Source: Naegleria gruberi
Lineage: Eukaryota
NCBI GenBank assembly: GCA_000004985.1
Contig: GG738857.1
DNA: 64,000 bases
Direction: 5' to 3' (one strand)
A model generated the notes under the pieces. The model made no database searches, was not told the origin of the DNA, and worked only from the letters and a program-made list of their open reading frames with translations. The position numbers and the translations under genes were made by a program. Numbering within the stretch: position 1 is the first letter of the stretch; each line of letters opens with the position of its first letter. This document shows positions 33,554 to 47,363 of the stretch, piece by piece.

Positions 33554-36548
33554 TTACACATCATTTAAAACATCAAAGAATGAAATCTCCTGATTATACG
33601 AGTTTGTTGAAGCTCTTCTATCTGCAGATGGAGAGAGAGGAGTGTTACTTCCACCTAATTCCAAACTAGTATTATTCAAACTCGTTCCAAGAGGAGATGG
33701 GCTAATTAGTGAGCCACCACTTCCAATTGAACCAGCCAAAGTTTGTGCTGTGCTTAATAAATCGGTGGTTGGTGTATTGGCTTTGTCACTTCCAACACTC
33801 ATAGTTCTTCTCAATTCTCTCATTCTAATTTCACCAAAGAGAACACATCCATCAATCGGTTTGGCATATTGATTGAGCATTGGAATACTTCTGCAACCTT
33901 TCTTTAATTGACGAACTGGAAGATAATTTTCACATAAAAATTCATTCGCAGTCTTGTTCTTGTCATAAACTGAAATACGAATTACAGCCAACTCTGGACA
34001 GGTAATGCTAAAGGCAAATCTCTTGTTAAAAACTGGATTGAAACCATTGTCAGTTACACTTTCTGACTTTTCATCATATTCATCTTGTGGAATACCTAAT
34101 ACTTGAAGTCTGACAAATGGATCAACAATTTCTCCCTTATCACTCATACCTGGTTTTGGCAATTGTTCTCCACAAACAACCTTTCCAATAAAATATTCCA
34201 GTAATTTCATTCAATTATTTAAAATATAAAGTTAATAATAAAAATAAAGAATAGAAACTCACTGTAAAAACAACAGATAATACTGGTGAAGTTCCAGCAG
34301 AGAATGGACTTGGAATGCCCTCTAAACGTAAAAAGTCAGGTTTTACAACATAGCCACATTTTCCATTCTCCTCGAATAAAACTTCGTTAAATCTCATATG
34401 TTCATCATAGGTCTGATAATTGAGAGCAACCATTTGACAACCAGTGGCCCAGCCCAACATTGGATTGTAATTACTTGATGAAATTCTGGTACCTCTTGGA
34501 TAGGTTCTAGAGATGTGATTCTTATTATACTTGACAAGGGCTTCTGGATCCTTCTTTAGGAGCTTTTCCAATTTACCTTCAGAGAAGCTGTGCATTTTCC
34601 AACATGGCTCAGCAAACTCTCCATGGAATGAAACTGCACACAATGCAATTATATCTGAGAGACCTTTGGCAACTTTGGACTTTTTCTTTTCCTTCTTTGG
34701 TTTCTCCTTCGAGGAGGATGGAGTAGAGACAGCTTCGTCATCCTCATCGTCTTCCTCCTCATCGTCATCTTCATCAGTTCCACTGCACAATCTCTTACCT
34801 TTGAGAAGGATCTTTCTCCTCAATTCGTGAGGAGATGGATATGTCACAATATCTTCAGGTGGAGGCATGTACAAATCCTCTCCAAATATTTGGACCATAA
34901 TCTTGGCCATCATTTCTTGTTGTGGTTCACTGCAGTGAACTTCCAATGATAAAATTACAGGGTACTCTGACGCTTTGAAGGCATAGTCGTGAATAATTTG
35001 GACTACATCTCTGAATTTAATTTTAGAGACGAGAGTGTGACCATGGAAAATGATTGGTTCATCCTTACCATCCCAACAATCCAATTCGACACAACGACAG
35101 CCAGTCAACAGTACATCTCTATACTTTTCAACAGAGCTTTCTCCTTTCAATTGATGTCCTGTCAGGTAGGTATTGTGAGAAGATGAAATAAAGTAGTGAG
35201 ACAGTGGTAGAGTCATATCTTGATGTAATTTCTTAAATCCTGGTTTCAATATTGAGTTTGCTTGTGAAAATAAATATCTGGTAAAATCATAACTTGTCAA
35301 ACCCAATCCCATTTCTGTTTGAATGGCTCCATGATTTTGCATTAATTTTTCTGCATCTTCAACTGTTTTAATATCTTGATCATCTTGTTGGGAGAGAATA
35401 AACTCAAAGAATTGTTGAGAGAGTACTAATTGGTGTTTCTTTGAATATCTGGCAAAGATTGTACTTTCAATTTCAGGTCTTCTCATCATAGATTTGTAAA
35501 ATTCAACAAATTCTTGGTATTCAATATATCCACTTCCATCTGTATCAAATTGTTTGTATTTTTGTTTCATTGATTTACTTGACATGTCAATATTCAACTT
35601 TTGGCATAATTTTACAACTTCCTAATAATAGCAAAAATTGTTTAATACATTAAATAAAAAAATTGAATGTGAATAAAACTTACCTTGTAATCCAGTTGTC
35701 CATCATTATTCACGTCAGCTTTCATCCAATGTTTTAAAATCAACAACTTGGTTGGATCTCTATCATAACTAATTCTTGATTCTCTAATCAAGTAATTGAG
35801 TAAACAAATATTTTCATTAAATTCATTCAAACTCTCACACATGATATCAATTTGTTCATCCTTGGCACCATAAATAATTGTATATCCATGTTCCAATTGT
35901 GGTGACTCTATTTTTCTACCAAAATAACCTTTTGATTGAGTTTTTGCTGCTTTACCCATCATGTCACTACCACAAATTTGTTTAATATCTCGTAAAAACA
36001 CTATCAATATCAAATCATTAAATTTCAATTATTTTCATCAATATTACACATCATAATAATAAATAGTACGTGTTTGTTTTGATAATAACAGGTTTAAATA
36101 GTTTAGAATATTTCCTACATACCATGTACTTTAGTTTCCTTCTTTTTCGAATCCTTTACCTCTATAAAAGTTTCCTCATCATCCAATACAAAATAATGAT
36201 CCTTGAGTGTGGTAGCTTTCTTCTCAAGGGATGATTTTAACTTTCTTCCCGACTTGAATTCTTGTAAAATCTTGTTAATATAGGCTGGTTCAGCATATTG
36301 ATAGGTTTGTAGTAAATGTTGATCAATGCAAATCTGTTCACACAATTCACTATTATCACTTCCAACGTGGAAGCTCCACCTCGAGGTGAAGATTCATTAT
36401 TGTGATTTGTTGTTGTTATTGTTGTTGTTCTACTATTATTGATGATGGATGAGGTGATGATGGGTGGTTGTAGTGGTGAGGGTGATGAAGATAATGATGA
36501 TGAAGGCAAATCATCCAATGCTCCTGGGCTTGTTGGATAGGATGACAT
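33554..36548 (-). CDS. Phosphoinositide-specific phospholipase C (PH - EF hands - X - Y - C2)
   Basis: Minus-strand exons, 5' to 3':
- a low-complexity N-terminus (about 36548..36370) whose frame differs from the PH exon;
- the PH exon (about 36350..36123; [14 protein letters not shown]...[15 protein letters not shown]), with donor GTATGT;
- exon 35684..36000, with the canonical EF loop [11 protein letters not shown]|E split by intron 35622..35683 (donor GTAAGT);
- exon 34263..35621, with EF loop [12 protein letters not shown] and X-box [12 protein letters not shown]...VELDCWDG;
- the Y-box exon, after intron 34181..34262 (donor GTGAGT);
- the C2 exon 33554..34180. Confidence 0.8.
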
Positions 36549-37977: not shown

Positions 37978-38058
37978 GCAGACTTGGCCGAGAGGTTAAG
38001 GCGCGAGACTCGAAATCTCGTGGGGAAACCTTCGTAGGTTCGAATCCTGCAGTCTGCG
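37978..38058 (+). tRNA. tRNA-Ser (anticodon CGA), class II with long variable arm
   Basis: GCAGACTTGGCCGAGAGGTTAAGGCGCGAGACTCGAAATCTCGTGGGGAAACCTTCGTAGGTTCGAATCCTGCAGTCTGCG. Acceptor stem GCAGACT/AGTCTGC, anticodon loop CTCGAAA, T-loop GGTTCGAATCC. Confidence 0.85.
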
Positions 38059-38411
38059 ACTGACTTTTACTTTCTCCCAATATCAGCGATCTTTTCTCCC
38101 GTTGTTTAACTTTAAATACTTCAACTTTCTATATCTTCACATCCACAACTGTTATACTATCATATCTGAAAATATTACCTCTCTTCTCCAAGTAATTATC
38201 TAGAACGAGCTGTTCTAAACTGTCGATAGGTTTTTTAGCTTGAACTTTTCTTCGTCAAAGAGTTGGGACTATGCAGATGTGGAGAGTGTATGTGAAGAGA
38301 ATCTTGATAAATGTAATTATTGTGCTCATAGGAATGTTGAGCAAAAGTCTAGTTGTTATGTTTTTCTGCAAATATGAAATTGAAATTGCAAATAAAGTTC
38401 ATTAATAAAAA

Positions 38412-39353
38412 ATGTCGCAACTTGAAGACCCATCTTGATAAATTCTCTTCCCATAGAATTAATTTTGGATATTTATTCATTTTGCAATTTGGATGATTTA
38501 CGTAATTTAATGTTGTCTTTTTCACAATTTTATGAATTGTTGAAAAGTTCGGAAGCATATAGAGTGTGGATGATTCAATTACATCATCTCGATCTTATAC
38601 GAAACTCGAAAGAGAGAAAAACAAGGAAACAATTCAAGAATTTTTCCTTTTTGGAATTGAGTGATAATTTCGAAAGAGTTGGAAAGAATGGTTCCATTGA
38701 AAATAGAACGACAGTAATAATGAAGGTAATTCGTAAACAGTTACATTATTGTATTTTGAAGGAATTGGGTAGTGCAACTTTTTTAGAGAAATGCCATGAA
38801 AGACCAAGGTATTTGGAGGATTTTAGAGATTTGGTGATTGAAAAATTGACCAAAACTTGTGTCATTACATCGATGAATAGATATTTACTGGAATATGATC
38901 CATTCTATTTGTTTAAATATTCTAGTACAAGTACGATTGATCAGATCTTTTTGCAAACAGTTTGTAGATTTATGTTTTTGACAGAAAGTAGTTCTTTTGG
39001 AAGTGATAGTCCATTTCTCCAAACTTGGAAAAAAATGTCAAATAATCAATTGGAACCTAATGTTAAAATTTGGAAGGAAGTTTACCAGAAAAGGTTTTGC
39101 AAGAATACCAAAGCTTGTTTGTTGGCCTATTCAACTGCCTTATTATTTACATGACGGAGAATACAAGACAGCTAGTGAGTTGGTGAAAGAAGAGGGCAGA
39201 TTGAAATGGTTACCACGTTTCATTGAAGAGTTTGAATGTGGTGAAGAATTCAAAAATTTGACGAATCCAAACTGTGAGGAAGCATTAGGATACTGCCAAC
39301 ACTATTTCTACAAGTTCAATATCAATACTGGAAAAAGGCAGTACTTTTATTAA
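38412..39353 (+). CDS. F-box-like protein gene with two frame discontinuities (possible pseudogene or assembly indels)
   Basis: ATG 38412 (MSQLEDPS) hits a stop after 8 codons. The F-box ORF (LINSLPIELILDIYSFCNLDDLRNLML) runs in frame +2 from 38435 to 39154. A third frame carries the remainder (38997..39353) after an A7 run near 39024-39036. Confidence 0.4.
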
Positions 39354-39437
39354 CCTGAACAAAGGACTGATTCACTTGGAATATTTACTTAGTTTATCTT
39401 ATAAATAGTTCAATATTATGATTTTTGTATTGTGGTT

Positions 39438-39556
39438 GGCTACGGCCATATCACGATGAATGCACCTCATCCCGTCCGATTTGAGAAGTTAAGCATCGTC
39501 GAGCCACATCAGTACTGAGGTTGGAGACAACTTGGGAACCTGTGGTGCTGTAGTCT
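39438..39556 (+). rRNA. 5S ribosomal RNA gene followed by a Pol III T-run terminator
   Basis: GGCTACGGCCATATCACG...CATCCCGTCCGATTTGAGAAGTTAAGC...GAGGTTGGAGACAACTTGGGAACCTGTGGTGCTGTAGTC. Helix I pairs GGCTAC with GTAGTC. TTTTT follows at 39556..39560. Confidence 0.85.
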
Positions 39557-39730
39557 TTTTAGTGAGCTTTTTCAATTTCCTTTTGAACAATAATTCAATA
39601 GGACATTAATACAGTTGCTTAATAGTTTAAGCAAAGAGAGTATAATTTCCTGCGAAATAAGATTTATTGAACATTGTAGTTTTAATACTTTAATACGGAG
39701 AAAATCCCCTTAATTGTTTTTCAAAAAAAA

Positions 39731-40876
39731 ATGGCTGAAACACTATTGTTCTCAACTCATAACCAAGCTGTACGGAAGAATATTGAACATTGGAAAACTT
39801 ACATCCACAAAAAAACTAATTTCTTAAAGGAAAACAAACTTTTCTTTAAATCACGAATGTCTGAAAATATGGAACAACGAAGCAGATTATTATATGATGT
39901 TTTATCTCCCGAGCAAAGAGAAGAAATAATTATTGATAAGTTTGTTCTTGATTTGTTTCTGATATGGAATGTACAAGATTACTATGATGATCTTGAGAAA
40001 AGCTTTCAAGTTCCGTTTTTTTTGAATGACCATTTCGATAAATATACCATGTACAGCTTGCTGTTTTTTAGAAAGATATTGTTTGAATCTGATTCTTATA
40101 TGGAGGAATACATTAGAGAATACCCAAAGATAGCAATTTATTCTCCCATGTTCAAATGTTTTTCTAGTTTTGTAAAGGAAGAATATGACTTGAAGAGTAA
40201 GAGATCCTCAATGTTAAATCACATTCCCTTCTTGAATTTCATTATTAAGCTTTTTAATTCTATGGGAGTTGAAGTTAAGGTGAATGATTATTTAAGAGAT
40301 GAGAATGGAAATATCCTAGTCAATCAATTACTAGCAATTAGCTATGAACAATTTAATATGTGTGGAATAGTTTCAAATGACTTGTCAATAGAGAGTGAAG
40401 AGGAATGGAGAAACTGTATTTTCACTTCACACATAATGCAAAGAAAACAAACAAACTTCAAAAAAGGTAGTATGTTCTCTCTTTGTTTCATTATCCATGG
40501 TTGTAAAATTACTTTCTTTTGTTCACATCAACCTTATTCATTGGATTATTTCGTATTCAACAAGATTCAAACCTGGGACTTTTGCAATGTGGATCATCTT
40601 ATTGAAATAGTTGGATGCCTTTTCATGTTTATAAGTCTTTCGTGGATGAATTCAAAAACAAATCCTTTTGAATATAAAACTGGAGAGATTCTTTCTGCAA
40701 TGAACACTGTTGAACTTTATGAACAAAAACTAAAAGAAAAACAAAAATATGAACAGGAGAGACAACAGTATAGGATAATTAAGGAAAAGCATAGATTGTT
40801 AAAGAGAAAGGACAAAAAAATTAAGTTTACTGATAGTGTTATAGAGCAATTATTAAAATGTACAATTAATAAATAG
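39731..40876 (+). CDS. Hypothetical protein (381 aa, no recognised domain)
   Basis: Single long ORF in an AT-rich context where random ORFs are short. K/E-rich C-terminus. Confidence 0.45.
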   Translation: MAETLLFSTHNQAVRKNIEHWKTYIHKKTNFLKENKLFFKSRMSENMEQRSRLLYDVLSPEQREEIIIDKFVLDLFLIWNVQDYYDDLEKSFQVPFFLNDHFDKYTMYSLLFFRKILFESDSYMEEYIREYPKIAIYSPMFKCFSSFVKEEYDLKSKRSSMLNHIPFLNFIIKLFNSMGVEVKVNDYLRDENGNILVNQLLAISYEQFNMCGIVSNDLSIESEEEWRNCIFTSHIMQRKQTNFKKGSMFSLCFIIHGCKITFFCSHQPYSLDYFVFNKIQTWDFCNVDHLIEIVGCLFMFISLSWMNSKTNPFEYKTGEILSAMNTVELYEQKLKEKQKYEQERQQYRIIKEKHRLLKRKDKKIKFTDSVIEQLLKCTINK

Positions 40877-40991
40877 AATAACCAAAGTTTAAACACCTTC
40901 TGACCTAGATGTTGGTTAATTAAGAGATTTTAGGTTCCGATTTATTAAGATATTAAGACATTAGCATATTTTTATGAGGAATGAATAAGAT

Positions 40992-41063
40992 TCCCGTGTA
41001 GTCCAATGGCTAGGATACCTGGCTTTCACCCAGGAGGTCCGGGTTCAATTCCCGGCATGGGAG
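40992..41063 (+). tRNA. tRNA-Glu (anticodon TTC)
   Basis: TCCCGTGTAGTCCAATGGCTAGGATACCTGGCTTTCACCCAGGAGGTCCGGGTTCAATTCCCGGCATGGGAG. Anticodon loop CTTTCAC, T-loop GGTTCAATTCC, acceptor TCCCGTG/CATGGGA. Confidence 0.85.
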
Positions 41064-41707
41064 AATCATTTTGTTTATTATTCAAAAAACTAGTCTTAAT
41101 TCGTGATAGTTCCTGTTTGAGATTTTCGACCACAAGCTTAGGTCAGAAATTATTTCCTTCCAAACAATCCGATGGGATATCCTGTTGTTTTTCTTATCTA
41201 CCATTGACGCACTTGTCCCTTCTTCAATGAAACTGAATATTTTTAAAATTCTTACTTCATTCCAATAGAAATAGTTCTCATCTTCAACGCTTAGTGTTTT
41301 TAATTAAAAAATGAACAGTTCTAACTAATTTACTAGACTTGGGCTAGTTCCATTGTTTTCGTTTGTAAAAGCAAATGTCGAGATGTGGCCACATTTGACT
41401 CCTCAAAGAAATTCTTCGCTCAACAACAAATTCCATTTAACTTTTTTCGAATCGTAAAATAAATTAACAAAATAATCATGAAGTTAACAAGTATCTAAAA
41501 TAGTTTCTGACTACCATTCTAAACAAATAACTTTTCACAAGAATCATTTTCACATCATCAAGTACCCAATTACCCAACCAAAAAAAAATCATTCAATACC
41601 CTACCTCATCCTAGTCTGGTCAATTGATACGTATTGACGTTAATTTTCACAACAACACTCATCAACGCCTGTTTTCCATCAAAACTAATCAAAACTAATT
41701 CAAACTA

Positions 41708-43516
41708 ATGAGGAAAAAGTCTTCTGCTTCATCCCACCTGTATTATTTTCCGTTGAGTTGTGTAATTCTTGATGGTGCCACTAATTTATTGACCACCATT
41801 GTGGACTCGTTCTCTCAACAAGATTCCACATCTTCAGCAGCAACTGGAAATAACCAAACTTTCAATGATACTTCATCAAATTGTAGCTCGCCATCATTAA
41901 TGACCGTTGACAGTTCAATGACATTTACAGAATATCATGATGGAAGATCGTTCACTGTTCCATGTGTTTATGAACTGAGAGATCGTTTTCAGAGGTTTTT
42001 GAAAGAAACTTCAACTAGGAGAGCTGATGATTATCTCATCAAGTTGCATAAATTAATGTTTTTAGATGAATTTTATGATCCAACAAGGAATAGAAGAAAG
42101 AGAATTGAGAATTGTGAAACATTATTCAGAATGTGTGATCAATATTTGACATTGATTCATATTCAATCAAAAAATTCACTTTCCTTTTCATTATTAGATA
42201 CATTCCCATATTTGTATAACTTTGAAGAAATGCAAAAGATTCAACCTGACAATTCCATTTTGAAAAATCATGAATATTTGGTGAAATGGTTCAGAAAACA
42301 ATCTGAAAATTTAAAGAAATATTTGGCAGAGAAAGCTAATCAAGAAGTATTGAATGGTGGAGAATCCACTTCACCAGTTTCACCAGAGGAATCAACACAT
42401 GACCTAAATGAATCGATGGCTTCTCCAACATTGAGTGGATATATTAATTCTCCAACAAAATCCATACCTGGCATTGAGGAAAAACAAGCAGAACAATCGA
42501 AACTTGCCGATTATTTGGATGAAAATGAATTGAAAATGTTAACATACATGTTGAGTTCTGAATTGGAAGATTACTTTTCACTCTTCCAAAAGTCAAATGT
42601 TAAATACATGAAAAAGTGGTTGGAAAAGAATGTAAAAAGTTTGCCAAACTATATTATTGACACAATATCCAAAAAGAGAAAGAAATATTTACATTATCAT
42701 GAAAATTACAAATTGAGAGAAGAAGATTTGAATATGAAAACAATTCTCGACTCTGATTTTGAATTCATTCAATATTTAGCAGAACATACTGAAGATTGGA
42801 CAATAATGAATTCAGATTCTCCCATCATTCAAAGTTTCAAATCAAAAGAAAACTATTCGAAAATTCCAGATATGAAAATGCAAAAGTTCATTTCAAAAAT
42901 CAATTATTCCATTGAAAATGTCTTGAAAACAACTCTTTGTAACACAGATGAAATTGGTGAAAAGGATAACATGATTGAATGCTCTGAATATCATCACTAT
43001 ACTGAAATTGATCCTTCCGTTTCGAGTAGAAAATATTCTTCAGTCATTCAAACTTCAATTATGAATTATGGATCGATATTTAAGAAACGTTCATTGGAAA
43101 ATGTAATTTCATGTAGGGCAACGTTTTGTGGAGATGAAATACAAGATGCCATTCATCTCTACAAGACATGTTCCTATGTTTCTAATAAGAATGAAGATTC
43201 TAAAGCTCCTGTAAAGATAGTTATTGTTGGAGGGAGAATCTTTTCAAGAATCGATTCGAATAGAACAAAAGTAATTGATGTACGAATGTTCAATGTTGGT
43301 GGAATGTTTTTCAATTCAGATTTTGTAGTGCACAAACTTTCGTCCAAGAAAATGCTAGACGATACTTTGGAATATTTGGAAAAATCAATGAAGAAATCAG
43401 AAAAGGAAGGTTTCCCAATGCCACAATCTGATAAGCATTTTATTTGGAAAACTTTTGCAGATTATTGTAAAGTTCATTGTAAAGTAAATGTTGAATTGAA
43501 ATGGGAGAAAAACTAG
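41708..43516 (+). CDS. Novel-family protein, tandem paralog A (602 aa)
   Basis: Single ORF. Shares with the 43742..45613 gene the blocks HLYYFPLS..DG.T, FHDGRSFTVPC..ELRDRFQ, and an identical 94-aa core LHKLMFLDEFYDPTRNRRKRIENCETLFRMCDQYL...VKWFRKQSENLKKYL, plus a C-terminal ATFCGDEIQDAIHLYKTCSYVSNKNEDSKAP block. No known domain recognised. Confidence 0.65.
   Translation: MRKKSSASSHLYYFPLSCVILDGATNLLTTIVDSFSQQDSTSSAATGNNQTFNDTSSNCSSPSLMTVDSSMTFTEYHDGRSFTVPCVYELRDRFQRFLKETSTRRADDYLIKLHKLMFLDEFYDPTRNRRKRIENCETLFRMCDQYLTLIHIQSKNSLSFSLLDTFPYLYNFEEMQKIQPDNSILKNHEYLVKWFRKQSENLKKYLAEKANQEVLNGGESTSPVSPEESTHDLNESMASPTLSGYINSPTKSIPGIEEKQAEQSKLADYLDENELKMLTYMLSSELEDYFSLFQKSNVKYMKKWLEKNVKSLPNYIIDTISKKRKKYLHYHENYKLREEDLNMKTILDSDFEFIQYLAEHTEDWTIMNSDSPIIQSFKSKENYSKIPDMKMQKFISKINYSIENVLKTTLCNTDEIGEKDNMIECSEYHHYTEIDPSVSSRKYSSVIQTSIMNYGSIFKKRSLENVISCRATFCGDEIQDAIHLYKTCSYVSNKNEDSKAPVKIVIVGGRIFSRIDSNRTKVIDVRMFNVGGMFFNSDFVVHKLSSKKMLDDTLEYLEKSMKKSEKEGFPMPQSDKHFIWKTFADYCKVHCKVNVELKWEKN
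42044..42326 (+). repeat. 283-nt near-identical tract shared with 44153..44435 (gene-conversion tract between tandem paralogs)
   Basis: 5 mismatches in 283 nt, all synonymous. Flanking coding sequence is much more divergent. Confidence 0.8.
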
Positions 43517-43741: not shown

Positions 43742-45613
43742 ATGAAATCTGCAGTTAAACCTTCATCATCATCCAAACATTTGTATTACTTTCCACTCAG
43801 CACAATTATCGTGGATGGATCAACAAGAAGTTTGTCATCCATGCTTTCTGAGAAAGCCACAACAACAGAAGAGGAAGTTATTAGAAAGTCAATAATGAGT
43901 AGAAGTAAGAGTGTTTCGTCTGCTTCAGGTTCTTTCGGTTCTACTCAACTTACAGTTGGTCCACTCTATACGAATGATTCGTCATCTGGTTGTAGTAGTT
44001 CTCCTTCACAATTAACTATTGATAGCAATGCAACGTTTACTGAATTTCATGATGGAAGATCATTCACGGTTCCATGCATTGTCGAATTGAGAGATCGCTT
44101 TCAACAATATTTAAAGTCAACTAGTGGAAATTCTGGTGATTTCCTATTGAAATTGCATAAATTAATGTTTTTAGATGAGTTTTATGATCCAACAAGGAAT
44201 AGAAGAAAGAGAATTGAGAATTGTGAAACATTATTCAGAATGTGTGATCAATATTTGACATTGATTCATATTCAATCAAAAAATTCACTTTCCTTTTCAT
44301 TATTAGATACATTTCCATATTTGTATAACTTCGAGGAAATGCAAAAGATTCAACCTGACAATTCCATTTTGAAAAATCACGAATATTTGGTGAAATGGTT
44401 CAGAAAACAATCTGAAAATTTAAAGAAATATTTGTCAGAGAAAGCTAGTCAAGAAATTGAAGTTTCCTCTTCACCTGAAGATAATACTGGAATGTTCTTG
44501 TCACCTTCAGTATCATCAACAACACTAAGTTTTGTAAATTCTCCAACATTGTCATTCCCTGGAAGTGATGTTGGACAGCCACTAGAAAAGACAAATCCCT
44601 CTTCTCAATTATTACTAGAATATTTGGATGAAAATGAATTGAAAATGTTAATTTACATGTTGAGTTCTGAATTGGAAGATTACTTTTCACTTTTTCAAAA
44701 AGCTAATCCCAAGTTTGTTAAAAAGTGGTTGGAAAAGAATGTAAAGAGTTTGCCAAACTATATTATTGACACAATTTCCAAAAAGAGAAAGAAATATTTA
44801 CACTATCATGAAAACTACAAATTAACTGAAGAAGATTTGAATATGAAAACAATTCTAGACTCTGATTTTGAATTCATTCAATATTTGGCCGAACATACTG
44901 AAGATTGGAAGATTCTAATGGATTCAAATCCAATAATAGCAGGATTTAAATCAAAAGAAAATTATTGTAAATTTACTGACATGAAAATGCAAAAATTCGT
45001 TACAACGGTCAATTATTCACTGGAAAATGTATTGAAAACCATGTTTGCTAACATTGAAGAATTAGGAGGTAGTGATAACATGATTGAAAGTTCTGAATAT
45101 CATCACTATACTGAAATTGATCCTTCCATTTCGAGTAGAAAATATTCTACTGTAATTCAAACATCATTGTGGAATTATGGATCAATATTCAAGAAACGTG
45201 CATTGGAAAATGTCATGTCATGCAAGGCAACATTTTGTGGAGATGAAATACAAGATGCCATTCATCTCTACAAGACATGTTCCTATGTTTCTAATAAGAA
45301 TGAAGATTCCAAAGCTCCAATTAAAATTATTGTGGTAGGAGGCAGAATATATTCCAAAATAGATTCAAATAGAACAAGAATTGTAGATGTAAGAATGTTC
45401 AATATTGGTGGGATTGTTGGAAACTTTGATTTTGTAACTTCAAACAAGTTGGTAGTGAAAAAGTCAATTGATGGAATTCTAGAATACTTGAAAAAAGCCA
45501 TGACCAATGCAGAAATGGAAGGTTTTCCAGTTCCTGATAGTTCTAAACACATTTGGAGAACACTAGTCGATTACTGTAGAGTGCATTGTAAAGTAGATAT
45601 TTCTAAATGGTAA
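43742..45613 (+). CDS. Novel-family protein, tandem paralog B (623 aa)
   Basis: See paralog A. It lies 225 nt downstream on the same strand. Confidence 0.65.
   Translation: MKSAVKPSSSSKHLYYFPLSTIIVDGSTRSLSSMLSEKATTTEEEVIRKSIMSRSKSVSSASGSFGSTQLTVGPLYTNDSSSGCSSSPSQLTIDSNATFTEFHDGRSFTVPCIVELRDRFQQYLKSTSGNSGDFLLKLHKLMFLDEFYDPTRNRRKRIENCETLFRMCDQYLTLIHIQSKNSLSFSLLDTFPYLYNFEEMQKIQPDNSILKNHEYLVKWFRKQSENLKKYLSEKASQEIEVSSSPEDNTGMFLSPSVSSTTLSFVNSPTLSFPGSDVGQPLEKTNPSSQLLLEYLDENELKMLIYMLSSELEDYFSLFQKANPKFVKKWLEKNVKSLPNYIIDTISKKRKKYLHYHENYKLTEEDLNMKTILDSDFEFIQYLAEHTEDWKILMDSNPIIAGFKSKENYCKFTDMKMQKFVTTVNYSLENVLKTMFANIEELGGSDNMIESSEYHHYTEIDPSISSRKYSTVIQTSLWNYGSIFKKRALENVMSCKATFCGDEIQDAIHLYKTCSYVSNKNEDSKAPIKIIVVGGRIYSKIDSNRTRIVDVRMFNIGGIVGNFDFVTSNKLVVKKSIDGILEYLKKAMTNAEMEGFPVPDSSKHIWRTLVDYCRVHCKVDISKW
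44153..44435 (+). repeat. Second copy of the 283-nt conversion tract
   Basis: Matches 42044..42326 at about 98% identity. Confidence 0.8.
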
Positions 45614-45623
45614 ATTAAAATAT

Positions 45624-47363
45624 TTAATCTACATTATTGAGCAACTCGTCCATCTTTCTCTTTTTTGATTGTGATTCCTCTTCGTCTTCTGATTCACTCG
45701 AATAATATTCAGCATATTCGCTATCAGAATCAAATACTTCATCAAACTCCTTAGTTTCCTCTCTGTATCGTTTTGGTTTTGGAATATCATATACTTCACT
45801 TCTTGTACCCCAATAATTAAACCAATCTTTGTATTCCCTCTCATCTAGTTCTTTTACAAGTTTTCTGAGTCTCCAATTTTGTTTCAATCTATTTGAGGCA
45901 TACTCAATGCTATAAGAATTATCCTTCACAGCCTCTGTAACAATTTCTAGATCATCCTTGAATGTATCAGATACATGCTGGAGTACAAATCCATTACCTT
46001 TAACAGTCTCCAAAATAAACTCTCTATCACTTTTCAACTCCTCTGGAATCTGCTGGAAAAGTGCTGAGTTTTTTTTGAGTGCATTCAATAGCATGTTTCT
46101 GTCAACATTACCAAAATCTTTCATTTTCTCTAAAATTAATGGAACATTTTCTCGTGATAAAAGTGTGGCCTTCTTAATGTCATCCTCTCTTTCCATAATA
46201 TATTCTATTGCATTGGTGTGAGTGGATGTTGTCATGGATAGAACTTCCCAGTCATTTTGTAAATCAGGATCAGCATACACAATAGCACTTCCATCATTGG
46301 AAACGGCTGCCAAAACAATTTCCTTATCTGCCTGAAGCTCTTCTGAGGCATATTCCAAAGATAGCCCACAATTTCTTACTGCATTCAATACAATTTCACG
46401 ATCATCTCCATAATCTTCCCAAATATAACTCAAAACTTCTCCATTTTCATTTACACATTCCAAAATGAAATCTCTATCCTGATATAGTTCATCACACGAA
46501 TATTGAATTGCATATGGAAAGGTTTTGATAGCTTCCAAAATGATTTCGTTGTCTCGGAGGAATTCATTGTTCACAAATTGAATAGCCTCTCCATTATTCT
46601 TTAGGGCAAGTAAAACCATTTCTCTGGTTTGATTCTCTGCATAAAACAACATTTCCCCACAATGTCTCACCATACGGCAGAAATCTTTTGTGTTCACATA
46701 AAATGGTTGTCGGAACTGCCAGTCATCCAATGGATTCTGACTATATTTTACAGATATTCTTTGCAGTTCGTCACTGGCATCTAGGTCCAGTTCAAAGATA
46801 TTTAGATCTGGATGCTCTTTTGTTAATCGTTTAAGAAAATCCATATTCGTTTGGTAATGCTGACCAGTCGCAAAAACTCCTGAATTCAAAGCCACGTACT
46901 TTCCCACACTTTGACTGATATAATATTCATCATTTTCCAAATAAGGATCATCAATACATGCAATTTCAAATAGCTCTGTACAAGCATGTCCACATGAATC
47001 CACAAATTGATAAGCTGATCCATCGTTCTTAATAGCTTCCTTACAAACATCATAAGTGACCAAACCATGATCTGAAACACAACTCAGAGCATACCCATTT
47101 TGTTTAACAGCTTCTAACAACAATCCATACTCTACAATTTCATCATCATTGAAATATTCCATTGCCATTCCATTGTGTTGTACAGCTTTTAAAGCAAGCT
47201 TCTCACGAAGATCATCGCTAGCCAAGTCAATCAATTCACAACAATACATGCCAGCCTTTAACATGAATTCTTCATCGGAGCCTAATATTTTCATCATTGA
47301 AGCTTCAATAGGAAAGTCAGAACAAACCGATGGATAATATTCCATGAGCCTCATGTTAATCAT
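45624..47363 (-). CDS. DUF4116-like repeat protein (paralog of the gene at the window start) with an acidic/NLS-like tail
   Basis: 579-aa ORF containing about 10 repeats of the type REIVLNAVRNCGLSLEYASEELQADKEIVLAAVSNDGSAIVYA. C-terminus SESEDEEESQSKKRKMDELL. Confidence 0.6.
   Translation of the reverse strand: MINMRLMEYYPSVCSDFPIEASMMKILGSDEEFMLKAGMYCCELIDLASDDLREKLALKAVQHNGMAMEYFNDDEIVEYGLLLEAVKQNGYALSCVSDHGLVTYDVCKEAIKNDGSAYQFVDSCGHACTELFEIACIDDPYLENDEYYISQSVGKYVALNSGVFATGQHYQTNMDFLKRLTKEHPDLNIFELDLDASDELQRISVKYSQNPLDDWQFRQPFYVNTKDFCRMVRHCGEMLFYAENQTREMVLLALKNNGEAIQFVNNEFLRDNEIILEAIKTFPYAIQYSCDELYQDRDFILECVNENGEVLSYIWEDYGDDREIVLNAVRNCGLSLEYASEELQADKEIVLAAVSNDGSAIVYADPDLQNDWEVLSMTTSTHTNAIEYIMEREDDIKKATLLSRENVPLILEKMKDFGNVDRNMLLNALKKNSALFQQIPEELKSDREFILETVKGNGFVLQHVSDTFKDDLEIVTEAVKDNSYSIEYASNRLKQNWRLRKLVKELDEREYKDWFNYWGTRSEVYDIPKPKRYREETKEFDEVFDSDSEYAEYYSSESEDEEESQSKKRKMDELLNNVD

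What the first reader, a model, noticed from the sequence alone, without database searches (positions are those of the whole stretch)
37978..41063. Pol III gene cluster with a chromosomal, dispersed 5S rRNA gene flanked by tRNA genes
tRNA-Ser(CGA), a 5S rRNA gene with a TTTTT terminator, and tRNA-Glu(UUC) all sit on the plus strand within 3.1 kb, interleaved with protein-coding genes.

In D. discoideum the 5S genes reside on the extrachromosomal rDNA palindrome, so a solitary 5S copy embedded among tRNA and protein genes is noteworthy if this is a dictyostelid contig. The sequences downstream of both tRNAs are GC-richer than typical intergenic DNA. In dictyostelids tRNA genes are targets of TRE/DGLT retroelements, and the flanking F-box ORF appears frameshifted.
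Basis: partly seen in the sequence, partly recalled or inferred. Interest (0 to 1): 0.5.

Follow-up and report, generated by a model that had tools for sequence, protein, structure and literature searches.

The report
Ordinary dispersed 5S gene in Naegleria
The 5S rRNA gene and the two tRNA genes are real, but the DNA is from the amoeboflagellate Naegleria gruberi, not a slime mould, and in that species about 279 single 5S genes are already known to lie scattered along the chromosomes, so the locus is ordinary.

Summary
All three RNA genes are confirmed at the stated coordinates, on the + strand. They are tRNA-Ser(CGA) 37978-38058, a full-length 5S rRNA gene 39438-39556 (Rfam 105 bits, E 4e-22) and tRNA-Glu(UUC) 40992-41063. 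Each has canonical internal promoter boxes and a T-run terminator. They are the only RNA-family hits in the 64 kb.

The window is not dictyostelid. One ORF is identical to Naegleria gruberi XP_002679435.1, which lies on a 573-kb chromosomal scaffold.

In Naegleria the extrachromosomal rDNA circle carries only 18S, 5.8S and 28S. A 2012 paper lists 279 putative chromosomal 5S genes in N. gruberi. My re-analysis of its table puts them on 117 scaffolds, with a median neighbour gap of 34 kb and no head-to-tail arrays. A solitary 5S gene between protein genes is therefore the rule in this species.

- **Retroelements:** there is no trace near the genes (no RT or integrase domains, repeats, target-site duplications or poly-A).
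- **Flank GC:** the tRNA flanks are not GC-rich relative to the window.
- **F-box gene:** it is broken by two frame disruptions.
- **Conservation:** the cluster is absent next to orthologous genes in N. fowleri and N. lovaniensis. Thirteen related 5S loci from metagenomes have no tRNA neighbour.

Verdict: real features, already known and ordinary. The close grouping is at most mildly non-random.

The parts
37978..38058 (+). tRNA-Ser(CGA) gene, 81 nt with a long variable arm, no encoded CCA. A box TGGCCGAGAGG at +8 and B box GGTTCGAATCC at +60.
   Evidence: ARAGORN; Rfam RF00005, 59.7 bits; box search
38065..38068 (+). T4 run 7 nt after tRNA-Ser, the likely Pol III terminator.
38412..39353 (+). 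F-box gene with two frame disruptions, probably a pseudogene. The conserved MSQ start at 38412 stops after 8 codons. The F-box ORF runs from 38435 to 39154 in another frame. The C-terminal homology continues in a third frame to the stop at 39353. It is a paralog of N. gruberi NAEGRDRAFT_64907.
   Evidence: Pfam F-box at its cut-off; frame translations; colinear BLASTP with P0130, ORF1 2-232 = P0130 22-252 and ORF2 37-90 = P0130 245-297
39400..39407 (+). TATAAATA at -38 to -31 of the 5S gene, the probable upstream TATA element. A TATA box is reported for N. gruberi 5S genes.
   Evidence: sequence; PMC3369914; AT-rich TATA-like motifs at a similar distance in related copies
39438..39556 (+). 5S rRNA gene, 119 nt and full length. 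Box A AGTTAAGC at +50. Box-C-like GAGGTTGGAGACAACTTG at +80, with 2 mismatches to the loose consensus.
   Evidence: Rfam RF00001, 105.4 bits, E 4.4e-22; MFE fold is the three-helix junction, -41.5 kcal/mol, z -2.6; 118/119 identical to the metagenomic copy L005; box search
39556..39572 (+). Two T5 runs (39556-39560 and 39568-39572), the Pol III terminators of the 5S gene.
39731..40876 (+). Intact 381-aa ORF between the 5S gene and tRNA-Glu, belonging to a Naegleria-only family of unknown function. It is context, not part of any Pol III unit.
   Evidence: 87% identity to an N. gruberi predicted protein (P0122) and 64% to P0123; no Pfam domain
40992..41063 (+). tRNA-Glu(UUC) gene, 72 nt. A box TAGTCCAATGG at +8 and B box GGTTCAATTCC at +51.
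   Evidence: ARAGORN; Rfam RF00005, 67 bits; box search
41069..41072 (+). T4 run 6 nt after tRNA-Glu, the likely Pol III terminator.

Best explanation
This is ordinary chromosomal DNA of Naegleria gruberi. It carries three independent RNA polymerase III genes, each sitting in a short spacer between co-oriented protein-coding genes. One is a member of the species' dispersed family of about 279 5S rRNA genes. The other two are among its roughly 924 tRNA genes.

Shown:
- Each gene has the sequence, fold, internal promoter boxes and T-run terminator of a working gene.
- The 5S gene also has a TATAAATA at -38 to -31.
- The genes are 1.4 kb apart, and a whole protein gene plus a terminator lies between each pair.

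Inferred:
- Each gene is transcribed on its own. The tRNAs would use TFIIIC on the A and B boxes, then TFIIIB and Pol III. The 5S would use its internal control region plus the upstream TATA and TFIIIB.
- The 5S RNA then joins 18S/5.8S/28S rRNA made from the extrachromosomal rDNA circle, which carries no 5S gene.
- The close grouping of the three genes is a loose, evolutionarily young neighbourhood, not a functional operon-like unit.
For: Identity of the genes.

Organism: the 602-aa ORF at 41708-43513 is exactly XP_002679435.1 of N. gruberi, on a 573,072-bp contig. The PLC exon is 100% identical to an N. gruberi entry on the same contig. Paralogs and orthologs occur only in Naegleria.

Not rDNA: there is no SSU, LSU or 5.8S hit. 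The window encodes villin-like, cullin, kinase, actin and PLC proteins, among others. The N. gruberi rDNA circle is 14,007 bp and carries 18S, 5.8S and 28S only (PMC5805870).

Dispersed 5S is the norm: PMC3369914 reports 279 putative 5S genes that are not located with the rDNA units, with an internal control region and a TATA box. Its Table S1, re-analysed, puts them on 117 scaffolds with a median neighbour gap of 33.9 kb. Only one gap is under 1 kb, and that one involves a partial copy.

Same architecture in relatives: 13 metagenomic contigs each hold one 5S gene, lying 50-200 nt from long ORFs, with flanks that are unrelated between copies.

Independent units: T4 or T5 runs lie directly after each gene, and 1.38 kb and 1.44 kb of protein-coding sequence separate them.
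Against: No expression, Pol III occupancy or read-depth data could be consulted, so activity of this particular 5S copy is inferred from sequence only. It differs at one loop position (T24) from the near-identical metagenomic copy.

The three genes are closer together than uniform placement predicts (P = 0.007). 5S genes themselves show about a four-fold excess of 1-5 kb neighbours genome-wide (22 gaps under 3 kb against 5.6 expected). Some non-random local clustering of Pol III genes therefore exists and is not explained.

PMC3369914 found no TFIIIA homolog in N. gruberi. How the internal control region is read is therefore unknown.
Confidence: 0.87

Rival explanations
1. One reading: a dictyostelid contig in which a 5S gene has escaped the extrachromosomal rDNA palindrome, with tRNA flanks marked by TRE/DGLT-type retroelement remnants.
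For: In D. discoideum the 5S gene does lie on the extrachromosomal palindrome, and TRE5-A does target tRNA and 5S genes (PMC5391098). The window is AT-rich with low-complexity N/Q/S runs.
Against: The window is N. gruberi by exact protein identity and by Naegleria-only homologs. GC is 34%. No RT, integrase or endonuclease-RT ORF is present. No ORF longer than 74 aa lies in either tRNA flank. There are no repeats, LTRs or target-site duplications. Flank GC is at or below the window mean.
Confidence: 0.01
2. A functional Pol III neighbourhood. The 5S gene and the tRNA genes are kept together because they share a Pol III/TFIIIC-rich chromatin domain, as in Leishmania major, where every 5S gene sits in a tRNA cluster.
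For: All three Pol III genes of the 64-kb window fall within 3.09 kb and on one strand. P = 0.007 for the spacing. Published 5S coordinates show a four-fold excess of 1-5 kb neighbours. There is precedent in another member of Discoba: the 11 5S genes of L. major are always associated with tRNA genes (PMC2695483).
Against: None of 13 related 5S loci has a tRNA gene within the 0.1-4.4 kb of flank available. About 0.7 such triplets are expected by chance in a genome with 924 tDNAs and 279 5S genes. Protein genes lie between the RNA genes, unlike the roughly 200-bp spacers in L. major. The arrangement is absent beside the PLC ortholog and the ORF602 orthologs in N. fowleri and N. lovaniensis.
Confidence: 0.1
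3. The 5S copy is a silent retro-copy or pseudogene, one of many dead copies in the dispersed family.
For: Dispersed 5S families commonly include pseudogenes. Table S1 of PMC3369914 lists 15 hits shorter than 110 nt. Similarity to other copies stops at the gene borders. One loop substitution separates it from L005.
Against: The copy is full length, all helices are canonically paired and it scores 105 bits. Box A is at +50 and box C at +80. It has a TATAAATA at -38 to -31 and a double T5 terminator. It has no poly-A tail or target-site duplication.
Confidence: 0.05

Closest known systems
Dispersed chromosomal 5S rRNA gene family of Naegleria gruberi (279 putative copies; Feng et al. 2012, PMC3369914)
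   Same: Same organism. The gene is 117-119 nt, not linked to the rDNA, and has an internal control region and an upstream TATA box. It is a single copy among unique sequence.
   Different: Nothing essential: this is one member of that family. The paper's Table 1 calls the genes 'tandem', which its own coordinate table does not support.
Dispersed 5S genes of Yarrowia lipolytica and Schizosaccharomyces pombe (PMC2566860); also Neurospora crassa (from my own knowledge, not checked here)
   Same: Tens to about a hundred 5S genes lie scattered outside the rDNA units, each with its own promoter and unrelated flanks.
   Different: In Yarrowia 48 of 108 copies are fused directly 3' of a tRNA gene and are transcribed as one dicistronic Pol III unit. 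Here the tRNA-Ser gene is 1.38 kb away, has its own T4 terminator, and a whole F-box gene lies in between.
Leishmania major Pol III gene clusters (PMC2695483)
   Same: A member of Discoba in which the 5S genes are dispersed and lie next to tRNA genes.
   Different: L. major clusters are tight, with mean spacers of about 202 bp, contain no protein genes, and include every 5S gene. Here the spacers are 1.4 kb and hold protein genes, and related 5S loci lack tRNA neighbours.
Entamoeba tRNA array units that also encode 5S RNA (PMC2652664)
   Same: 5S and tRNA genes are close together in an amoeba whose rDNA is on an extrachromosomal circle.
   Different: The Entamoeba units are tandemly repeated arrays with microsatellite-like spacers. 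No tandem repetition occurs here.
[quoted passage not shown]
   Same: Both organisms keep 18S and 28S rDNA on a multicopy extrachromosomal element.
   Different: Dictyostelium carries the 5S gene on that element. The Naegleria circle has no 5S gene, and the 5S genes are chromosomal.

Membership tests
5S rRNA (Rfam RF00001) | Covariance-model score at or above the curated gathering score, over the full length | tested here: met
   105.4 bits against a cut-off of 38, model positions 1-120, E 4.4e-22, no non-canonical pairs flagged
5S rRNA (Rfam RF00001) | Three-helix-junction secondary structure | tested here: met
   The MFE and centroid folds give the canonical junction, -41.5 kcal/mol, z -2.6
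Eukaryotic type-1 Pol III gene (5S) | Internal control region (box A near +50, box C near +80) and a T-run terminator | tested here: met
   AGTTAAGC at +50. The best box C match is at +80 with 2 mismatches of 11 specified positions. T5 at 39556-39560 and 39568-39572. The intermediate element was checked only by eye; no clean match to its consensus at +65 to +73.
Eukaryotic type-1 Pol III gene (5S) | Actual transcription by Pol III, with TFIIIA-dependent recognition | not testable with these tools
   No expression or ChIP data were available. PMC3369914 reports that no TFIIIA homolog was found in N. gruberi.
tRNA genes (Rfam RF00005, type-2 Pol III) | Cloverleaf above threshold, an anticodon, A and B boxes, a T-run | tested here: met
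   67 and 59.7 bits against a cut-off of 29. ARAGORN gives Ser(cga) and Glu(ttc). A boxes at +8 and B boxes at +60 and +51. T4 runs at +7 and +6.
Dispersed (non-tandem, non-rDNA-linked) 5S gene family | A single copy with unique flanks, no 18S/28S nearby, and no second 5S adjacent | tested here: met
   One 5S gene in 64 kb and no SSU or LSU. The flanks are unrelated to those of the near-identical copy L005. The published family lies on 117 scaffolds.
Tandem 5S rDNA array | Head-to-tail repeats of gene plus spacer | tested here: not met
   No repeats were found. The published coordinates contain one gap under 1 kb, which involves a partial copy.
Extrachromosomal rDNA element (Naegleria circle or dictyostelid palindrome) | Carries 18S, 5.8S and 28S; about 14 kb circle or 88 kb palindrome | tested here: not met
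   No rRNA hit other than 5S. The window lies on a 573-kb scaffold with housekeeping genes. The circle encodes only 18S, 5.8S and 28S.
Dictyostelid genome | Proteins identical or closest to those of dictyostelids | tested here: not met
   Exact match to an N. gruberi protein. The nearest relatives are N. fowleri and N. lovaniensis.
tRNA-5S dicistronic Pol III gene (Yarrowia type) | The 5S gene lies immediately 3' of a tRNA gene with no terminator between them | tested here: not met
   A 1,379-nt gap holding a T4 terminator at +7 and an F-box gene
tRNA-targeted retroelement insertion (TRE5, TRE3, DGLT-A or any analogue) | Reverse transcriptase/endonuclease coding remnants, repeats or target-site duplications within a few hundred nt of the tRNA gene | tested here: not met
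   No RT, integrase or endonuclease domain in any ORF of 180 aa or more. Flank ORFs are 74 aa or shorter. No repeats or target-site duplications beyond chance. A dictyostelid repeat library could not be searched and is moot for Naegleria.
Leishmania-type Pol III cluster | Tight cluster (spacers of about 200 bp) without protein genes; every 5S gene linked to tRNA genes | tested here: not met
   The spacers are 1.38 and 1.44 kb and hold protein genes. None of 13 related 5S loci has a tRNA gene.

The most novel reading that the evidence does not exclude
Pol III genes (5S and tRNA) of N. gruberi may not be placed at random. They may gather in loose, co-oriented neighbourhoods with 1-4 kb spacing, in fast-turning-over stretches populated by lineage-specific or decaying protein genes. 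Here those are a doubly frameshifted F-box gene and a Naegleria-only orphan ORF.

Such a pattern would point either to a Pol III chromatin hub that tolerates or causes decay of neighbouring Pol II genes, or to local duplication or retroposition hot spots that seed new 5S and tRNA copies.

The evidence does not exclude this. The three genes cluster with P = 0.007. 5S-5S gaps under 3 kb are four-fold over-represented. The cluster is absent beside orthologous genes in N. fowleri and N. lovaniensis.
Probability: 0.12. Interest if true: 0.4.

Novelty: already known. Interest (0 to 1): 0.12.

Why it matters
It matters little beyond correct annotation. The locus illustrates a point often blurred in the Naegleria literature. 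[quoted passage not shown] 5S supply must therefore be coordinated across two genetic compartments, Pol III on chromosomes and Pol I on about 4,000 circles.

If the loose clustering of Pol III genes proved to hold genome-wide, it would give a free-living Discoba counterpart to the Pol III clusters of Leishmania. That remains untested.

Tried and rejected
- **Fetching N. gruberi DNA:** looking up the exact proteins (P0001, P0122, P0123) to fetch other N. gruberi loci found nothing on record. A genome-wide 5S-tRNA test could not be run.
- **Synteny:** the PLC ortholog locus (L014, N. fowleri-like) and the ORF602 ortholog loci (L020 N. fowleri, L021 N. lovaniensis) have no 5S or tRNA gene. Their protein neighbours also differ, so gain or loss of the Pol III genes cannot be separated from general loss of gene order. 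L022 was fetched but not scanned with ARAGORN or Rfam; BLASTN found no 5S- or tRNA-like match in it.
- **Promoter and terminator scan:** the tool is of bacterial type and irrelevant to a eukaryote.
- **Intron explanation for the F-box frame changes:** rejected. No GT...AG interval longer than about 34 nt fits at the C-terminal break. Homology to the paralog switches frame within one codon.
- **Target-site duplications or poly-A tails as signs of retroposition:** nothing beyond chance.
- **Papers not held:** Clark & Cross 1987 and Fritz-Laylin 2010 could not be read.
- **Read depth:** it cannot be checked with these tools.
Full report
**1. Observation**

ARAGORN reports exactly two tRNA genes in the 64-kb window, both on the + strand:
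- tRNA-Ser(cga) at 37978-38058
- tRNA-Glu(ttc) at 40991-41064

Rfam cmscan at curated thresholds reports exactly three hits:
- 5S_rRNA at 39438-39556 (+): 105.4 bits against a gathering score of 38, E 4.4e-22, all 120 model positions, no non-canonical pair
- tRNA at 40992-41063: 67 bits
- tRNA at 37978-38058: 59.7 bits

A permissive scan of 30-50 kb adds only a spurious antisense hit on the tRNA. The 5S RNA folds by itself into the canonical three-helix junction, at -41.5 kcal/mol and z -2.6.

The gene features are as follows:
- **5S internal promoter:** box A (AGTTAAGC) is at +50. The best box C match in the gene is at +80, with 2 mismatches.
- **5S upstream element:** TATAAATA lies at -38 to -31 (39400-39407).
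- **5S terminators:** T5 runs at 39556-39560 and 39568-39572.
- **tRNA promoters and terminators:** both tRNA genes have A boxes at +8, B boxes, no encoded CCA, and a T4 run 6-7 nt downstream.

**2. Organism**

The 602-aa ORF at 41708-43513 is residue-for-residue XP_002679435.1 (EFC46691.1), a predicted protein of Naegleria gruberi on a 573,072-bp contig. The phospholipase C exon at 34215-35597 is 100% identical to an N. gruberi entry on the same contig. The neighbouring ORFs have homologs only in Naegleria: N. gruberi paralogs plus N. fowleri and N. lovaniensis orthologs. Window GC is 33.9%.

This is a heterolobosean, not a dictyostelid. The TRE5, TRE3 and DGLT-A comparison is therefore moot.

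**3. Is it part of an rDNA element?**

No. The window has no SSU, LSU or 5.8S hit. It encodes a villin-like protein, cullin, a protein kinase, actin, an LRR protein, PLC, DUF4116 proteins and a MatE transporter. It lies in a 573-kb scaffold.

In Naegleria the 18S, 5.8S and 28S genes reside on a circular extrachromosomal element of about 14 kb (14,007 bp in strain EGB), present in 3,000-5,000 copies. The 5S gene is not among the genes listed for that element (PMC5805870).

**4. Is a solitary chromosomal 5S gene unusual here?**

No. Feng et al. 2012 (PMC3369914) searched the JGI N. gruberi assembly. They reported 279 putative 5S genes, not located with the rDNA units, with an internal control region and a TATA box.

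I transcribed their Table S1 and analysed it:
- The 279 hits lie on 117 scaffolds, and 264 of them are at least 110 nt long.
- The median distance between neighbours on one scaffold is 33.9 kb.
- Only one gap is under 1 kb, and it involves a partial copy.
- 22 gaps are under 3 kb.

The family is therefore dispersed, with some loose 1-4 kb groupings and no head-to-tail arrays. The paper's summary table nevertheless ticks 'tandem'.

With 924 tDNAs (PMC2888827) and 279 5S genes in about 41 Mb (genome size from my own knowledge), a 64-kb window is expected to hold about 1.9 Pol III genes. This one holds 3.

**5. Related loci**

A scan of metagenome contigs with a 27-mer from loop C of this 5S gene returned 13 contigs. 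Each holds exactly one 5S gene and no tRNA gene.

One contig (L005) carries a 5S that is 118/119 identical to the window copy, but with unrelated flanks. The others carry a 73-78% identical 5S from one or more unidentified low-GC eukaryotes.

In all of them similarity stops at the gene borders. An AT-rich TATA-like motif lies around -25 to -35, and a T-run follows the gene. The 5S gene is wedged 50-200 nt from long ORFs. The architecture seen in the window, a single 5S gene in a short spacer between protein genes, is thus typical of this lineage.

**6. Is the grouping with tRNA genes meaningful?**

Evidence for non-random placement:
- Three uniformly placed points fall within 3.09 kb of 64 kb with P = 0.007.
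- 5S-5S gaps under 3 kb are four-fold over-represented genome-wide: 22 observed against 5.6 expected, P about 1e-7.

Evidence that it is a coincidence:
- About 0.7 cases of a 5S gene with two tRNA genes within 1.6 kb are expected by chance in the genome.
- None of the 13 related loci shows a tRNA neighbour.
- The genes are not a transcription unit. Each has its own terminator, and 1.38 kb and 1.44 kb containing complete protein ORFs lie between them.

Some local clustering of Pol III genes probably exists, but the balance favours coincidence for this locus.

Cross-species comparison does not help much. The PLC ortholog locus in an N. fowleri-like assembly (L014; its protein clusters at 90% identity or more with N. 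fowleri FDP41_011485) has no 5S or tRNA gene within up to 10 kb. Neither do the ORF602 ortholog loci of N. fowleri (L020) and N. lovaniensis (L021). However, their protein-coding neighbours also differ. Gene order has simply not been kept between these species.

**7.

- **GC-richer DNA downstream of the tRNAs: not supported.** The values are 34.0% and 31.0% against a window mean of 33.9%, which is the 48th and 23rd percentile. The neighbouring very short spacers are 25-27%.
- **Retroelements: no support.**
  - No RT, integrase or endonuclease-RT domain occurs in any ORF of 180 aa or more.
  - No ORF longer than 74 aa lies in either flank.
  - No repeats appear within the region or against the rest of the window and all fetched loci.
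  - No target-site duplication or poly-A tail exceeds chance.
- **Frameshifted F-box ORF: confirmed and sharpened.** The only detectable relative is N. gruberi F-box protein NAEGRDRAFT_64907 (P0130, 307 aa, 62% identity).
  - Its MSQ start is matched by ATG 38412, which runs into a stop after 8 codons.
  - The F-box continues in another frame from 38435 and stays colinear with P0130 residues 22-252, up to '...LLAY'.
  - Homology to P0130 residues 253-297 ('QLPYYLHDGEYKTASELV...') then continues in a third frame to the stop at 39353.
  - The switch happens within one codon, so no intron can explain it.
  - Two disruptions in 750 nt make a pseudogene more likely than sequencing error, but re-sequencing would be needed to be sure.

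**8. Mechanism**

Shown: three sequence-intact Pol III genes, each with its own promoter elements and terminator.

Inferred from established Pol III biology:
- TFIIIC binds the A and B boxes of the tRNA genes and recruits TFIIIB and Pol III.
- The 5S gene uses its internal control region together with the upstream TATA element, which is bound by TBP within TFIIIB.
- Transcripts end at the T-runs.
- The 5S RNA joins rRNAs made by Pol I from the extrachromosomal circle.

PMC3369914 found TFIIIB and TFIIIC subunits but no TFIIIA homolog in N. gruberi. How the 5S internal promoter is recognised there is therefore an open detail.

**9. Comparison with known systems**

The locus is a member of the already published dispersed 5S family of N. 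gruberi. In architecture it resembles the dispersed 5S genes of S. pombe and Yarrowia (PMC2566860) and of Neurospora (from my own knowledge, not checked here). It differs from the other known arrangements:
- **Yarrowia-type tRNA-5S dicistron:** here there is a terminator and 1.4 kb between the genes.
- **Leishmania-type tight Pol III cluster (PMC2695483):** here protein genes lie inside the cluster, and related loci lack tRNA genes.
- **Entamoeba-type tandem array (PMC2652664):** here nothing is tandemly repeated.
- **Dictyostelium (PMC5391098):** there the 5S gene is on the rDNA element; here it is not.

**10. Verdict**

The feature is already known and ordinary for this species.

Interest is low. 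The only residual point of interest is the mild, untested tendency of N. gruberi Pol III genes to lie in loose neighbourhoods.

Noticed in passing
window 38412-39353 (+): F-box gene with two frame disruptions, one at the N-terminus after the MSQ start and one near 39131 after '...LLAY'. It is a 62%-identical paralog of the intact N. gruberi gene NAEGRDRAFT_64907 and is probably a pseudogene.
   Followed up: yes
window 39731-40876 (+): Intact 381-aa ORF, 87% identical to an annotated N. gruberi predicted protein on another scaffold (P0122). Its exact sequence is absent from the 15-billion-protein collection, so the gene may be unannotated or modelled differently in the public annotation. The family has only three detectable members: two in N. 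gruberi and one (P0123) from an unnamed SRA-derived source.
   Followed up: partly
window 41708-43516 and 43742-45613 (+): Tandem paralogs of 602 and 623 aa, 80% nucleotide identity over 1.17 kb, from a Naegleria-specific family with no Pfam domain. Single orthologs of about 40% identity occur in N. fowleri (FDP41_007157) and N. lovaniensis (C9374_008067).
   Followed up: partly
literature: PMC3369914, Table 1 versus Table S1: The paper scores N. gruberi 5S genes as 'tandem arrangement: yes'. Its own coordinate table shows 279 hits on 117 scaffolds, a median spacing of 34 kb and no head-to-tail arrays.
   Followed up: yes
literature: PMC5805870 and other papers on the Naegleria rDNA circle: [quoted passage not shown] That overlooks the roughly 279 chromosomal 5S rRNA genes, of which this window holds one.
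   Followed up: partly
L001, L002, L004, L006, L007, L010-L012 (metagenome contigs VFQM/VFQO): Dispersed 5S copies from an unidentified low-GC eukaryote differ from each other by compensatory base-pair changes in helix III: GCGTAG/CTGCGC, GTGTAG/CTGCAC and GCATAG/CTGTGC. Several structurally intact 5S variants therefore coexist. Five copies also share TTTTACT just after the gene.
   Followed up: partly
window 4112-8542 (+): A single 1476-aa ORF combines WD40, PH, two RRM domains, three gelsolin repeats and a villin headpiece. An RNA-binding villin-like protein is an unusual domain combination.
   Followed up: no
window 35-913 (+) and 45624-47363 (-): Two ORFs made of DUF4116 repeats (3 and 7 matched repeats), a repeat family of unknown function.
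   Followed up: no
L020 19729-21975 (N. fowleri VFQX01000058): Reverse-transcriptase (RVT_1) ORFs lie about 8 kb downstream of the N. fowleri ortholog of ORF602. Nothing comparable is in the N. gruberi window.
   Followed up: no
window 33.5-45.6 kb versus L014, L020, L021: PLC and ORF602 are 5.7 kb apart in N. gruberi. Their N. fowleri orthologs lie on different contigs (965 kb and 584 kb), and none of the immediate neighbours is shared. Gene order between the two species is not conserved at this locus.
   Followed up: partly
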